A stretch of 64,000 nucleotides of DNA from Clostridia bacterium (GTDB taxonomy: Bacteria > Bacillota > Clostridia > UBA1381 > UMGS1253), in NCBI GenBank assembly GCA_045652745.1, contig JAZRUW010000003.1, positions 10,032 to 74,031 of the forward strand, in the 5' to 3' direction. Position numbers and translations under genes: made by a program. Shown here piece after piece: positions 28,509-31,145 of this stretch (position 1 is its first letter; each line of letters starts with the position of its first letter). Under the pieces are notes generated by a model, which did not search any database, was not told the DNA's origin, and saw nothing but the letters and a program-made list of their open reading frames with translations.

Positions 28509-30728
28509 ATGAAAAGAAGCTTAAGGCTGTTTCTTAGCGTATTTGTCGCTACATTATTGGTCATTACTATGCTCATCGGCGGTGTGTTCGCCATCAGTTT
28601 CTTCGGATTGTTCGGCGCAGACAGTTTTGATGCAAGCATGATCAGTTTAAACCTGTCTTCAACCGTATATTATACCGACGACAACGGGATATCCCACGAA
28701 CTTACACATCTGTACCAATCCCAAAACCGCATATGGGCAGATATTACGGACATCCCGCAATATATGCAGGATGCCTTCGTTGCAATTGAGGATGAGCGTT
28801 TTGAAAGCCATGGCGGTGTAGATATCCCCCGTACTGCAAAAGCTACGCTTCAATATATCTTCAGCGGCTCTAGTTCTTTCGGCGGCAGTACCATAACGCA
28901 ACAGCTGGTAAAAAACTTAACCAATGACCGCGACGCCAGCCCTTTGCGTAAAATCCGCGAGATGGCACGTGCAATTGCACTCGAGCGCGAAATGTCCAAG
29001 CAGCAGATTTTGGAAATGTATTTAAATACAATTTTCCTTGCAAACAACTGTTACGGTGTACAATCTGCCTCCAACCGATATTTTGGCAAAGATGTAAGCG
29101 AATTGTCTTTGGCGCAATGCGCTTGCATCGCCGGCATCACCCAGTATCCGAGTTACTACGATCCGCTTCGCAATCCGGACAACACTTTAGATAAGCAAAA
29201 AATCATTCTCGAAAAAATGTTGAATCTCGAAAAAATCACACAGGAAGAATATGACGAAGCCCTGGCAGAAAAAATCACATTCGGCGTCGAAGGAAAGACT
29301 GACAATTCTCCTGTTCAATCCTATTTTGTTGACGAAATCATACGAAATGTAATCAATGACTTGATGGAACAAAAAGGTTACTCGGAAGCACTGGCCGAAC
29401 AAATTGTTTACAGCAGCGGACTTAAAATTTACGCAACCATCGACCCTGACGTACAGGACGCAATGGAAGCCGTATATGAAAACCCGAACAGTTTCCCCGC
29501 AGCGCCCGGCAACATAAAACCGGAATCCGCCATGGTCATAATCGATAATAAGACCGGCGCTGTAAAAGGCATCGTCGGCGGCATCGGTCAAAAGAAGCAA
29601 AATCGAATTTTCAATCGTGCAACACAGGCACTTCGCCAACCCGGCTCTACGATGAAACCGCTCGGCGTATATGGTCCGGCAATCGAAAAAGGGATTATTT
29701 CCCCATCGTCGCTTGTTTTGGATGCTCCAATAGATGTCAATGGCTGGAAACCGTCCAACTACTATGCCGGTTACAAAGGCACGGTAACTGCACGTACAGC
29801 ACTCAAAGAATCCATGAACACCCCTGCCGTACGCGTACTGCAAGACGTAGGCGTAGACTATTCCTATAAATTCGTTACGGACAAGCTCGGACTAACGACA
29901 TTGGTAGACAAAGAAACGCGCGACGGTAAAGTGTTCTCCGACAGAAACTTAAGTTCACTTTCTCTCGGCGGTCTGACGGATGGTGCAAAACCAATTGAAG
30001 TTGCAGCAGCTTACGCAGCTTTTGCAAACGGCGGCGTGTACAACAAACCGTATACCTATACTAAGGTCGTAGACAGCGACGGCAATGTATTGTTAGAAAA
30101 CAAGCCAAACAGCAAAATCGCAATGAGCGACACAACGGCTTATATGGTTACATCCATGCTCGAAAGTGTTGTAACTAACGGTACCGGTACAACAGCGCGA
30201 CTTCCCTGTGGGATGCCGTCCGGCGGTAAGACGGGTACGACAGACGACGAAAAAGACAGATGGTATGTTGGATTTACACCATATTATACCGGTGTAGTGT
30301 GGTATGGATATGATAATCCGAAATCCTTGAGCTTTTTAAGCTACCACCCTTGTACACCGGTATGGAAAAATGTTATGAACACAATCAGTGCCACTCAGCC
30401 AAAGAAAACGTTCGCAATTCCCGGCGGTATACAGAAAGTCAGTGTATGCAGCGAAACAGGAAAGCAGCCCGGTGCGACTTGTGAGCCGGTATATGAATGT
30501 TTCAAACGTGGCACTGCACCAACAGCCGTGTGTAACGGCGAGCACGCTCTTCCGGTTACCGATACTGTAGAAAACAATCCAGAAGCCGGCGGTGTGACAT
30601 CACCGGAAACAACGCCGGAAACCATTGTTCCTCCGGCAGAAGAAATACCGATTCCGTCAACAGATACACAACAACCACAACAACCAAGCCAGCCAGATAA
30701 CGTTATACAATTGCCAGATGGCATATAA
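28509..30728 (+). CDS. Class A penicillin-binding protein (PBP1A family)
   Basis: Glycosyltransferase motifs EDERFESHGG, GSTITQQL and RKIRE; transpeptidase motifs STMK, SMN and KTG; P/T/E/Q-rich tail. Confidence 0.95.
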   Translation: MKRSLRLFLSVFVATLLVITMLIGGVFAISFFGLFGADSFDASMISLNLSSTVYYTDDNGISHELTHLYQSQNRIWADITDIPQYMQDAFVAIEDERFESHGGVDIPRTAKATLQYIFSGSSSFGGSTITQQLVKNLTNDRDASPLRKIREMARAIALEREMSKQQILEMYLNTIFLANNCYGVQSASNRYFGKDVSELSLAQCACIAGITQYPSYYDPLRNPDNTLDKQKIILEKMLNLEKITQEEYDEALAEKITFGVEGKTDNSPVQSYFVDEIIRNVINDLMEQKGYSEALAEQIVYSSGLKIYATIDPDVQDAMEAVYENPNSFPAAPGNIKPESAMVIIDNKTGAVKGIVGGIGQKKQNRIFNRATQALRQPGSTMKPLGVYGPAIEKGIISPSSLVLDAPIDVNGWKPSNYYAGYKGTVTARTALKESMNTPAVRVLQDVGVDYSYKFVTDKLGLTTLVDKETRDGKVFSDRNLSSLSLGGLTDGAKPIEVAAAYAAFANGGVYNKPYTYTKVVDSDGNVLLENKPNSKIAMSDTTAYMVTSMLESVVTNGTGTTARLPCGMPSGGKTGTTDDEKDRWYVGFTPYYTGVVWYGYDNPKSLSFLSYHPCTPVWKNVMNTISATQPKKTFAIPGGIQKVSVCSETGKQPGATCEPVYECFKRGTAPTAVCNGEHALPVTDTVENNPEAGGVTSPETTPETIVPPAEEIPIPSTDTQQPQQPSQPDNVIQLPDGI

Positions 30729-30735
30729 CCAATGC

Positions 30736-30765
30736 AAAAGCGCACTAAAATTTAGTGCGCTTTTT
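30736..30765 (+). terminator. Intrinsic terminator of the PBP gene
   Basis: AAAAGCGCACTAAA-A-TTTAGTGCGCTTTTT. Confidence 0.8.
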
Positions 30766-30856
30766 CTTTATATGTTTATCATCAAATAGTTAAAAGTCCC
30801 GTACAGATATACGGGGCATTTGGAAGAGCCGAATGGTTTAGATGCAAGGTGTTTTA

Positions 30857-31034
30857 GTGAAATATCAACTTCGTTGATGTGAAATAATTTACTGATTAAA
30901 TTATGAAATAGAAACCTTACGGTTTCTGTGAAATGAAATAAATCCTTTTATCACACGCCACAGGCGTATTTCACATTGCGAAGCAATATTTCACGCACGA
31001 AGTGCATTTCACAAATCCGCAGGATTTATTTCGT
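30857..31034. repeat. Dyad-symmetric array of GTGAAAT/ATTTCAC heptamers interleaved with perfect mini-hairpins (function unknown)
   Basis: GTGAAAT at 30857, 30879 and 30928 (ATGAAAT at 30903); ATTTCAC at 30968, 30988 and 31006 (TTATCAC at 30948, ATTTCGT at 31028); seven perfect hairpins lie between them. Confidence 0.85.
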
Positions 31035-31036
31035 TG

Positions 31037-31068
31037 AAAAAAGACTATTCCGAAGAATAGTCTTTTTT
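31037..31068 (-). terminator. Terminator of the tRNA operon (bidirectional in form)
   Basis: AAAAAAGACTATTC-CGAA-GAATAGTCTTTTTT abutting the CCA end of tRNA-Lys. Confidence 0.85.
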
Positions 31069-31069
31069 C

Positions 31070-31145
31070 TGGTGATCCATCCGCGATTCGAACGCGGGAC
31101 ACCTTGATTAAAAGTCAAGTGCTCTGCCGGCTGAGCTAATGGACC
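31070..31145 (-). tRNA. tRNA-Lys(UUU)
   Basis: GGTCCATTAGCTCAG...CTTGA-CTTTTAA-TCAAG...GTTCGAATC...ACCA cloverleaf. Confidence 0.95.

What the first reader, a model, noticed from the sequence alone, without database searches (positions are those of the whole stretch)
30857..31034. Heptamer-plus-hairpin array that can fold into a ladder of four-way junctions
SEEN: the left arm reads GTGAAAT [ATCAAC-TTC-GTTGAT] GTGAAAT [AATTTA-CTGAT-TAAATT] ATGAAAT [AGAAACC-TTAC-GGTTTCT] GTGAAAT. The right arm reads TTATCAC [ACGCC-ACA-GGCGT] ATTTCAC [ATTGC-GAA-GCAAT] ATTTCAC [GCAC-GAA-GTGC] ATTTCAC [AAATCC-GCA-GGATTT] ATTTCGT. All seven inserts are perfect Watson-Crick hairpins with unrelated sequences, so structure is conserved rather than sequence, with a period of 18-25 nt. 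ATTTCAC is the exact reverse complement of GTGAAAT. INFERENCE: in single-stranded form the heptamers pair in nested order (30928/30968, 30903/30988, 30879/31006, 30857/31028), placing left and right hairpins opposite each other as three stacked four-way junctions. It is non-coding, is not a CRISPR array and matches no RNA family I recognise. Candidates are a non-autonomous REPIN/MITE-like element, a protein-binding array or a structured ncRNA.
Basis: partly seen in the sequence, partly recalled or inferred. Interest (0 to 1): 0.8.

Follow-up and report, generated by a model that had tools for sequence, protein, structure and literature searches.

The report
Two-armed Gut-1 hairpin array behind tRNA
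The heptamer-plus-hairpin array is real and is a two-armed copy of the known but unexplained Gut-1 RNA motif. It sits directly behind a tRNA gene, and related copies almost always precede a small four-helix-bundle protein gene of unknown function, which gives both orphans a testable partner.

Summary
It is not a new family. The right arm, read on the minus strand, matches Rfam Gut-1 (RF01706) at 74.3 bits against a cut-off of 50. The left arm matches on the plus strand at 40.9 bits.

Several features go beyond the 77-nt Rfam model. Gut-1 hits that lie next to each other are always convergent (30 of 30, and 19 of 19 in a second sample). The heptamer changes between copies (at least 8 types), but the two arms stay complementary. 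A covarying 10-15 bp long-range pairing, which I call P0, closes the first arm. Arrays start directly after a strong hairpin, and in 30 of 89 regions that hairpin is a tRNA terminator.

The strongest new result concerns genes for 23S-rRNA-IVP / four-helix-bundle (Avd-like) proteins. These are preceded by such arrays in 78 of 80 named loci, and in 60 of 80 both arms were parsed, at a fixed distance from the gene.

The four-way-junction ladder is energetically plausible. It is not singled out by covariation: no register is preferred, G·U pairs are not enriched, and loop types are mirrored between arms. Function and strand remain unproven. My best reading is a structured RNA that is a solo copy of an IVP-linked module.

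The parts
31070..31145 (-). tRNA-Lys(UUU), last gene of a five-tRNA operon. The array begins 33 nt after its 3' CCA. This is context, not part of the repeat unit.
   Evidence: ARAGORN; Rfam tRNA; a 12/12 promoter match for the operon at 31619-31591 on the minus strand
31036..31069 (.). hp0: a perfect 15-bp hairpin with an A-run and a T-run. It looks like a terminator on both strands and abuts both the tRNA CCA and the first heptamer. Its stem sequence is not conserved between copies.
   Evidence: the repeat finder I2, 100% complementary; alignment A1 shows that similarity between copies starts only at the T-run
30963..31036 (-). Sense arm, the Gut-1 core. Read on the minus strand: CA, H0 (31028-31034), hp1 (31013-31027), H1 (31006-31012), hp2 (30995-31005), H2 (30988-30994), hp3 (30975-30987), H3 (30968-30974), and the start of hp4.
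   Evidence: RF01706 at 74.3 bits, cut-off 50, E 1.6e-14, full model 1-77
30948..30967 (-). hp4 (30955-30967) and a degenerate fifth heptamer, H4 (30948-30954), lying beyond the Rfam model.
   Evidence: Sequence; the same module is present in relatives
30932..30946 (-). Centre: the 3' strand of the long-range pairing P0. It is complementary to H0 plus the 5' half of hp1 (31021-31035), so P0 and hp1 exclude each other.
   Evidence: the repeat finder I3, 15 nt, 93%. A perfect complement of 9 nt or more occurs in 34 of 62 parsed elements against 5% of cross-element controls, with 21 distinct sequences. Among 48 distinct strand pairs there are 529 WC, 39 G·T, 31 A·C and 16 other pairs.
30853..30934 (-). 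Antisense arm. Read on the minus strand: R1 (30928-30934), hpA (30910-30927), R2 (30903-30909), hpB (30886-30902), R3 (30879-30885), hpC (30864-30878), R4 (30857-30863), then TAAA. Read on the plus strand it is itself Gut-1-like.
   Evidence: RF01706 at 40.9 bits on the plus strand 30855-30939, below the cut-off; de novo parse; the unit ends just after R4+TAAA
30821..30845 (-). Tail motif (seen as GCATCTAAACCATTCGG...CCA on the minus strand). It follows several arrays but also follows ordinary genes, and it lies outside the repeat unit proper.
   Evidence: 5 good copies among 8 matches (3 or fewer mismatches) in the genome; alignment A1
30798..30815 (-). Terminator-like hairpin on the minus strand. 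It is a possible 3' end for a read-through transcript that carries the array.
   Evidence: scan_promoters_terminators
30736..30764 (+). Terminator of the convergent penicillin-binding-protein gene (ORF 28509-30728). It closes the array off from the other side.

Best explanation
The feature is one solo copy (of at least 11 in this 1.54-Mb genome) of an extended, two-armed form of the Gut-1 RNA motif. The unit reads on the window's minus strand. Directly after the tRNA-Lys gene and its terminator hairpin come four 'GUGAAAU + hairpin' units (the Rfam core). Next is a central segment that can pair with the 5' end (P0). Last come three hairpins bracketed by four copies of the complementary heptamer.

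Shown: family membership; the modular anatomy; compensatory change in the hairpins and in P0; concerted change of the heptamer in both arms; placement behind strong hairpins and tRNA genes; and tight linkage of such arrays to genes for four-helix-bundle (23S rRNA IVP, Avd-like) proteins.

Inferred: it acts as a single-stranded nucleic acid, most likely an RNA made by read-through from the tRNA operon. Its complementary heptamers let the arms zip into a stack of four-way junctions, in competition with P0. It is the nucleic-acid partner (binding platform or regulator) of the IVP proteins. Solo copies like this one would be dispersed or orphaned derivatives of the array-plus-IVP module.
For: Family: RF01706 at 74.3 bits.

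Copies: the own genome has 15 hits at E<=1, 6 of them over the cut-off, plus a divergent array on C15. 21 of 41 relatives carry hits, as do 30 of 151 genomes sampled across the class.

Arm arrangement: adjacent hits are convergent in 30 of 30 cases and 19 of 19.

Hairpins: about 890 stem pairs in 175 distinct hairpins are 97% Watson-Crick.

Arm complementarity: consensus heptamers found independently in the two arms are exactly complementary in 27 of 40 elements, against 7% of cross-type controls. New complementary types appear upstream of IVP genes.

P0.

Energies: hairpins only -56.2, P0 -64.7, ladder -71.1 kcal/mol.

Strand: 11 of 91 distinct antisense-arm hairpins carry a tandem G·A motif with covarying inner pairs when read on the sense strand, and 0 carry the mirror motif. 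In arrays on C15 and in several relatives the last heptamer lies 3-20 nt from the IVP ribosome-binding site, so both arms are likely to lie in one transcript there.

tRNA: 30 of 89 regions have a same-strand tRNA ending 31-43 nt upstream, covering 13 tRNA kinds, and 0 have an opposite-strand tRNA.

IVP link: 13 of 57 IVP matches lie within 600 nt of a Gut-1 hit, all on the same strand. Both IVP genes of this genome are preceded by an array. 60 of 80 named loci have a complementary two-armed array ending at -52/-53 or about -34 from the start codon, and 18 more have one arm parsed. 27 of 30 Gut-1-positive genomes have PF05635, against 25 of 120 Gut-1-negative ones.
Against: I obtained no direct evidence of transcription, strand or RNA ends. 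RNA runs held 5-8% of the sampled words, and only three low-depth contigs of a related copy appeared in one RNA library.

A strong terminator precedes the array, and no sigma-70-like promoter was found inside it.

G·T pairs are not enriched over A·C mismatches: 6 against 12 in the sense arm, 5 against 5 in the antisense arm, and 39 against 31 in P0. This is unusual for an RNA under structural selection.

The ladder has no preferred register. Only 5 of 40 departures of a heptamer from its arm consensus have a changed partner in the nested register.

Loop types are mirrored between the arms: 37 of 80 antisense-arm loops are reverse complements of the common sense-arm loops, and only 1 of 80 is identical. 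This fits each arm being read on its own strand.

In the GTTATAT sub-type the arms carry a central mismatch.

In the sister 'type B' architecture a bidirectional terminator separates the arms, and each arm has a promoter-like site of its own.

In the IVP clade nearest to this copy, a TGnTATAAT promoter lies between the array and the gene, so there the array is not in the mRNA.

This genome has at least 11 arrays but only two IVP genes, and some solo heptamer types have no IVP-linked counterpart in it.
Confidence: 0.5

Rival explanations
1. It is a mobile or duplicative DNA element (MITE- or REPIN-like). Its hairpins would form in single-stranded DNA or as cruciforms. Its inverted heptamers would be recognition sites used on both strands by a protein acting in trans. 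The element would land behind terminators and tRNA genes.
For: The element is multi-copy and often lies at contig ends.

Motif types show dyad symmetry, with heptamers and loops mirrored between arms. Stems are almost purely Watson-Crick, with G·T no commoner than A·C.

Unit boundaries are sharp and flanks are unrelated. The ends form an extended inverted repeat.

The orthologous spacer between the penicillin-binding-protein gene and tRNA-Lys in three congeners lacks this element and holds other repeats. The nearest copy, 91% identical, sits in another genome with different flanks.

Arrays lie behind 13-16 different tRNA kinds.
Against: No transposase is linked to the arrays.

The two RAYT-like genes (NF047646 at 65-67 bits, below the cut-off of 80) are flanked by a different, classic-looking palindromic repeat.

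I recognised no target-site duplication and found no clean empty site.

Some copies are conserved at orthologous sites across species, for example G000:C7 and G001:C380, and the type B copies of G001, G002 and G003.

The tandem G·A hairpins are strand-specific.
Confidence: 0.2
2. The region holds two independent, convergent small-RNA genes, one per arm, each functional on its own strand as an ordinary Gut-1 RNA. The complementarity of the heptamers would then be only a by-product of using the same motif on opposite strands.
For: RF01706 matches both arms on opposite strands. In several relatives both arms score above the cut-off.

All adjacent pairs are convergent.

Type B copies have a promoter-like TGnTAAAAT site and a leader hairpin on each side, with a bidirectional terminator in the middle.

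Loops are mirrored between arms.
Against: In this copy and other type A copies, no promoter was found for the second arm.

The arms differ systematically: four hairpins plus P0 in one, three hairpins including G·A-motif hairpins in the other.

The order of the arms is fixed relative to the upstream hairpin and to the downstream IVP gene. A transcript of the second arm on its own strand would have to start inside or beyond the IVP promoter region.
Confidence: 0.15
3. It is a passive structural buffer between convergent or tandem transcription units. A cluster of hairpins would stop or stabilise read-through RNA from very active tRNA operons, in the way REP/BIME elements act at 3' ends, with no specific partner.
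For: The array is bracketed by terminators on both strands and lies between convergent genes. Many copies follow tRNA genes.
Against: This reading does not explain four things: the conserved heptamers and their concerted change in both arms; P0; the constant count of four heptamers per arm, seen in 50 of 64 parsed arrays; and the near-obligate, fixed-distance linkage to one protein family. The hairpins also lack U-tracts.
Confidence: 0.1

Closest known systems
Gut-1 RNA motif (Rfam RF01706; Weinberg et al. 2010, PMC2864571)
   Same: The right arm is a full-length, above-threshold match: three hairpins each followed by the GUGAAAU-type heptamer, as in the model consensus printed. The motif is listed as a candidate non-coding RNA known from human-gut sequence only (Table 1 row and one paragraph seen).
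   Different: The Rfam model covers 77 nt of one arm. It does not cover the fourth hairpin, the closing pairing P0, the obligatory convergent second arm, the variant heptamers (most of which fall below the cut-off), the position behind tRNA terminators, or the link to IVP genes. Whether the paper's supplementary text mentions any of these I could not check, because supplements are closed.
REP / BIME / REPIN elements with RAYT transposases
   Same: Both are short, multi-copy intergenic palindromes. Both often occur as inverted pairs and are common between convergent genes and after terminators. Both combine a conserved short flank with a hairpin.
   Different: Here several different hairpins are strung between identical heptamers, and the two arms do not pair with each other outside the heptamers. 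The genome's RAYT-like genes are flanked by another repeat.
Repeat-containing protein-partner RNAs (type III antitoxin arrays such as ToxI; CsrB/RsmZ-type sponges); recalled, not tested
   Same: Both carry a short single-stranded motif repeated between structured units. Both lie immediately upstream of, or act on, a small protein, which allows several protein subunits to bind one RNA.
   Different: The units here are not near-identical tandem repeats. No nuclease or toxin activity is known for IVP proteins. PADLOC gave no match.
23S rRNA intervening sequences that carry an IVP ORF, and DGR Avd proteins
   Same: The linked protein belongs to the same family: PF05635 at 91 bits and TIGR02436 at 101 bits, with PDB 2rld at E 7e-24. 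A passage of PMC10053308 says the family resembles Avd. In both settings the gene sits inside or just behind a stable-RNA gene, next to extended RNA structure.
   Different: Here the gene lies behind tRNA genes, not inside 23S rRNA. No reverse transcriptase or template repeat was looked for or seen. The heptamer-hairpin array has no described counterpart in those systems, as far as my searches reach.

Membership tests
Gut-1 RNA (RF01706) | Covariance-model score at or above the curated gathering score (50 bits) over the full model | tested here: met
   Right arm, minus strand 30963-31036: 74.3 bits, model positions 1-77. Left arm, plus strand: 40.9 bits, below the cut-off.
Gut-1 RNA (RF01706) | Three stem-loops with covarying stems, each followed by the conserved heptamer | tested here: met
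   Alignment to the model consensus; 95 distinct sense-arm hairpins with 440 WC, 6 G·T and 12 A·C pairs
Gut-1 RNA (RF01706) | Expressed as a non-coding RNA | tested here: inconclusive
   Only low-depth contigs of a related copy in one RNA library, with no strand or end information
REPIN / REP with RAYT | The same repeat flanks a RAYT gene in the genome | tested here: not met
   Two RAYT-like ORFs were found. The one on C23 is flanked by, and contains, a different GC-rich palindrome. The one on C9 is tightly packed between genes.
REPIN / REP with RAYT | Two inverted copies pair along their length into one long hairpin | tested here: not met
   The arms are complementary only in the heptamers and at the ends. 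The hairpins of the two arms are unrelated.
MITE | Terminal inverted repeats, target-site duplication, and a related autonomous transposon | tested here: inconclusive
   The ends form an extended inverted repeat. No duplication was recognised, no empty site was found, and no transposase is linked.
CRISPR array | Direct repeats of about 21 nt or more separated by unique, non-palindromic spacers, all in one orientation | tested here: not met
   The repeats are 7 nt, the 'spacers' are perfect hairpins conserved between copies, and there are two orientations.
Type III toxin-antitoxin RNA array | Near-identical tandem repeats directly upstream of an endoribonuclease toxin gene | tested here: not met
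   The units differ in sequence. The linked protein matches no PADLOC model and has no known nuclease activity (recalled).
Intrinsic terminator cluster | GC-rich hairpin followed by a T-run | tested here: not met
   Only hp0 (31036-31069), 30736-30764 and 30798-30815 qualify. The seven array hairpins are followed by the heptamer, not by T-runs.

The most novel reading that the evidence does not exclude
Gut-1 arrays are the cognate nucleic-acid partner of the four-helix-bundle IVP/Avd-like proteins, whose solved relative 2rld holds five chains in its entry. Each arm offers four to five copies of a heptamer held apart by hairpins. The closing helix P0 and the inter-arm ladder are alternative folds that expose or hide those heptamers. 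Array plus IVP gene would form a small selfish or regulatory module that rides behind stable-RNA genes: tRNA here, 23S rRNA intervening sequences elsewhere. That module would shed solo arrays such as the one in this window.
Probability: 0.3. Interest if true: 0.8.

Novelty: new variant of a known kind. Interest (0 to 1): 0.6.

Why it matters
Gut-1 has been listed as a candidate structured RNA since 2010 (PMC2864571). My library searches found no functional study of it. The only other paper naming it is a 2026 benchmark. The 23S-rRNA-IVP / four-helix-bundle family is widespread, turns up in cas loci and DGRs, and is functionally unexplained outside DGR Avd (passages in PMC3936711 and PMC10053308).

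A near-obligate, fixed-distance linkage between the two (78 of 80 loci with at least one arm) turns two orphans into one testable pair. The tests are direct: does the protein bind the heptamer array, on which strand, and in which fold?

The work also shows that the Rfam model captures only about a third of the real unit, and that most heptamer variants escape it. Finally, the array is a natural case of many perfect four-way junctions or a competing closing helix, which is of interest for RNA structure work.

Tried and rejected
Chance: rejected.

RAYT/REPIN link: two RAYT-like ORFs exist, but they carry their own, different repeat.

Expression: the look-up of sequencing runs gave only runs holding 5-8% of the sampled words. 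Laying four RNA contig sets covered the tRNAs. In run X2 three contigs at depth 2-5 and 85-92% likeness covered 30928-31038. These come from a related copy and give no strand or ends, so I do not use them as evidence of transcription.

Empty-site search: the spacer between the penicillin-binding-protein gene and tRNA-Lys in congeners holds other repeats rather than an empty site. The C30 locus has its tRNA inverted in G005. The C4 locus gave no contiguous match.

Wobble test for the strand: a first count (865 WC, 7 G·T, 0 A·C) came from a parser that accepted G·T but not A·C. The symmetric parser removed the signal, and P0 gave none either.

Parsers and alignment: a first chain parser was too noisy and was replaced. 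The MAFFT alignment A2 of 54 arrays shifted whole modules in the first arm. I therefore did not run the count of structure pairs or build a covariance model, and used module-wise counts from scripts instead.

Promoter in the tail region: no convincing sigma-70 match (and reading).

Other checks: PADLOC gave no match for the IVP protein. A HEPN relationship of IVP that I recalled was not borne out by the paper search, and I dropped it. Complex prediction, structure prediction and the protein-atlas tools were not used. Supplementary files of Weinberg 2010 were not opened because they are closed. They may describe paired or extended Gut-1 forms.

Full report
**1. Observation.** The left arm has four heptamers (30857, 30879, 30903, 30928) with three perfect hairpins between them. 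The right arm has four perfect hairpins separated by ATTTCAC at 30968, 30988 and 31006, and flanked by degenerate heptamers at 30948 and 31028. Two ATTTCAC copies spaced 11-22 nt apart occur three times in the window, against 0.01 expected from 100 shuffles. Each strand folds better than all 200 shuffles, with z about -4.5.

**2. Identity.** Rfam RF01706 (Gut-1) matches 30963-31036 on the minus strand at 74.3 bits (cut-off 50) over the whole model. It also matches 30855-30939 on the plus strand at 40.9 bits. Weinberg et al. 2010 list Gut-1 as a likely non-coding RNA known only from human-gut sequence. I saw the table row and one paragraph and could not see the supplements. Apart from a 2026 benchmarking paper, my searches found nothing else naming it.

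**3. Anatomy, read on the minus strand.**
- The tRNA-Lys gene ends at 31070.
- A perfect 15-bp hairpin with an A-run and a T-run follows at once (hp0, 31036-31069).
- Then come CA and four heptamer-hairpin units, H0 to hp4 (31034-30955), and a degenerate fifth heptamer.
- A central segment (30932-30946) is complementary to H0 plus the 5' half of hp1 (31021-31035; 15 nt, 93%). I call this pairing P0.
- Four complementary heptamers then bracket three hairpins (30934-30857), followed by TAAA.
- A tail motif lies at 30821-30845.
- A terminator-like hairpin lies at 30798-30815 on the minus strand, and the terminator of the convergent penicillin-binding-protein gene at 30736-30764.
- The tRNA operon has a 12/12 promoter match at 31619-31591. 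No comparable promoter lies inside the array.

**4. Copies.**
- The 1.54-Mb genome gives 15 Gut-1 hits at E<=1, 6 of them over the cut-off.
- Reading them shows five two-armed copies of the GTGAAAT/ATGAAAT type and four of a GCGATAT type. There is one of a GCTAAAT type and a further array starting in tandem after the C1 copy. An eleventh, of TCGATAT type, was found on C15.
- Gut-1 hits occur in 21 of 41 relatives. By coded family the counts are f1 11/18, f2 1/1, f3 8/11 and f4 0/10.
- They occur in 30 of 151 genomes sampled across the class, in 21 of 108 genera.
- Of 119 hits in the relatives, 60 form 30 adjacent pairs, and all 30 are convergent. In the class sample, 19 of 19 pairs are convergent.
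- So the second arm belongs to the unit.
- Aligning two own-genome copies and one relative shows where similarity starts and stops. It starts at the T-run just before CA-H0 and stops just after R4-TAAA. The flanks are unrelated, and the terminator stems differ.

**5. Heptamer types.** A parser that finds the repeated 7-mer in each arm independently gave exactly complementary consensus heptamers in 27 of 40 elements. Twelve had one mismatch and one had two. Cross-type controls were exact in 7%. Complementary types seen are GTGAAAT, ATGAAAT, GTGATAT, GCGATAT and GTGAAGT, and ATGAATT, GCTAAAT and TCGATAT. Hairpins at corresponding positions stay recognisably related between types. The heptamers have therefore changed in concert on a conserved scaffold. 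The exception is a GTTATAT sub-type paired with ATATCAC.

**6. A second architecture, type B.** This form was read (for example G002:C9, G003:C38, G004:C47). It has a bidirectional terminator between the arms, and on each outer side a TGnTAAAAT site and a leader hairpin. There the arms must be separate convergent transcripts.

**7. Structure tests.**
- Stems are almost purely Watson-Crick. Counts are 440 WC, 6 G·T and 12 A·C in 95 distinct sense-arm hairpins. They are 450 WC, 5 G·T and 5 A·C in 80 antisense-arm hairpins.
- P0 is conserved. A perfect complement of at least 9 nt occurs in 34 of 62 elements, against 5% of controls, with 21 distinct sequences. In 48 distinct strand pairs there are 529 WC, 39 G·T, 31 A·C and 16 other pairs, and the non-WC pairs are concentrated in the outer three positions.
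The unconstrained optimum (-85.4) uses an inter-arm pairing of hp3 with hpC that other copies cannot make.
- The ladder register is not singled out. Nested pairing gives 91.2% of cells paired, parallel 91.5%, slid by one rung 95.0% and 88.0%. Only 5 of 40 departures of a heptamer from its arm consensus have a changed nested partner (a few type B sets were included).
- Counts of heptamers agree with a ladder: 50 of 64 parsed IVP-linked arrays are 4+4.
- Two observations pull in opposite directions on the strand question.
  - For each arm on its own strand: loops of the second arm are reverse complements of the common first-arm loops in 37 of 80 cases and identical in 1 of 80.
  - For both arms folding on one strand: 11 of 91 distinct second-arm hairpins carry a tandem G·A motif with covarying inner pairs, but only when read on the sense strand.

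**8. Context.** In 30 of 89 regions a same-strand tRNA ends 31-43 nt before the first arm, covering 13 tRNA kinds. None has an opposite-strand tRNA, and eight regions lacked upstream sequence. One own-genome copy follows what looks like the tmRNA gene (my reading). Other copies follow a non-terminator leader hairpin preceded by a promoter-like site (C17, G002:C34, G014:C171). The orthologous spacer in three congeners lacks this array. G003 has two copies of another palindromic repeat, G005 has a different heptamer type, and the tRNA-Lys terminator stem differs too. The closest copy, 91% identical over 205 nt, lies in G003 with other flanks. Some copies are nevertheless shared at the same site by several species.

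**9. Link to IVP genes.**
- The ORF after the C4 array is a 115-aa protein. It matches PF05635 (23S_rRNA_IVP, 91 bits) and TIGR02436 (four helix bundle protein, 101 bits), and PDB 2rld at E 7e-24.
- In the 41 relatives, 13 of 57 IVP matches lie within 600 nt of a Gut-1 hit. All 13 are on the strand of the first arm, and 11 lie directly after the second arm.
- The only other IVP gene of this genome (C15) is preceded by a TCGATAT-type two-armed array whose last heptamer is 3 nt from the ribosome-binding site.
- Of 40 further IVP upstream regions, 15 hold arrays found de novo.
- Among 80 named MAG loci with IVP 77-93% identical, 60 have a complementary two-armed array within 420 nt upstream. Eighteen more have one arm parsed and 2 have none.
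- In those loci the array ends at -52/-53 or about -34 from the start codon. 63 have a same-strand tRNA upstream, covering 16 kinds.
- In this clade a TGnTATAAT promoter and a ribosome-binding site lie between the array and the start. The -35 region falls in the last hairpin. The IVP stop often overlaps the start of varied downstream genes.
- In the class sample, 27 of 30 Gut-1-positive genomes have PF05635, against 25 of 120 negative ones (Fisher 2e-12). That figure overstates the case because related genomes are not independent.
- Paper passages say that the family resembles DGR Avd (PMC10053308) and turns up in cas loci (PMC3936711; a figure legend of PMC10910872).
- My searches found no paper linking this protein family to hairpin arrays or to Gut-1.

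**10. Interpretation.** Membership in the Gut-1 family is secure. Beyond that, I think the unit is most likely a single-stranded nucleic acid, probably RNA, read on the minus strand here. Its arms are kept complementary so that they can zip together, in competition with P0. It would be the partner of IVP proteins, and this window's copy would be a solo form. The main weaknesses are these:
- there is no expression evidence;
- a strong terminator lies upstream;
- G·U pairs are not enriched;
- no ladder register is preferred;
- loops are mirrored between the arms;
- the type B architecture exists.

These weaknesses keep three rivals alive: a DNA-level mobile element, two convergent small-RNA genes, and a passive hairpin buffer. 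The RAYT route for mobility is unlikely, because the genome's RAYT-like genes carry another repeat.

**11. Novelty and limits.** The following extend the 77-nt Rfam description:
- the two-armed unit;
- P0;
- the variant heptamers;
- the placement behind tRNA genes;
- the IVP linkage.

I found none of these in the papers I could search. The 2010 supplements, which I could not open, may cover part of them. All structural counts come from my own module-wise parsers run on the loci fetched, not from a curated structural alignment.

Noticed in passing
L197 (G000:C23:728-3847), ORF at locus 1339-1866; also L196 (G000:C9), ORF at 1297-1794: There are two RAYT-like ORFs (NF047646 at 65-67 bits, below the cut-off of 80). 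The C23 gene is flanked by copies of a GC-rich palindromic repeat, and the same repeat also occurs twice inside its coding sequence.
   Followed up: partly
L046 and L057 (spacer between the penicillin-binding-protein gene and tRNA-Lys in congeners); also L035, L045, L047: A different palindromic repeat family of about 110 nt, each copy ending in a terminator-like hairpin, sits directly behind tRNA-Lys in congeners. G003 has two copies. In G002 an IVP pseudogene with two in-frame stops lies in the same spacer.
   Followed up: no
window 30821-30845; G000 C1:4111, C15:2601, C15:5820, C17:40538: A conserved motif of about 25 nt ending in CCA lies just before terminators. It occurs after arrays and also after ordinary protein genes. 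Its role is unknown.
   Followed up: partly
L003 (G000:C30) against L209 (G005:C28:1600-2120): Between the same flanking genes, a tRNA gene with its promoter has opposite orientation in the two congeners. Only the G000 version carries a Gut-1 array.
   Followed up: no
L254-L333 (80 named MAG loci): The IVP stop codon often overlaps the start codon of the next gene. My reading suggests those next genes are diverse, including hydrolase-, pyrophosphatase-, kinase- and acetyltransferase-like products. IVP proteins are 77-93% identical across MAGs labelled with different family names.
   Followed up: no
G000 tRNA genes generally, e.g. window 31036-31072: The encoded CCA of several tRNA genes is followed within one base by the A-run of a bidirectional terminator hairpin. 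This layout is unusually compact, and the arrays then abut that hairpin.
   Followed up: partly
window 30928-31038, run X2: Three low-depth contigs from a gut metatranscriptome library, 85-92% alike, cover a related Gut-1 first arm. DNA carry-over cannot be excluded.
   Followed up: partly
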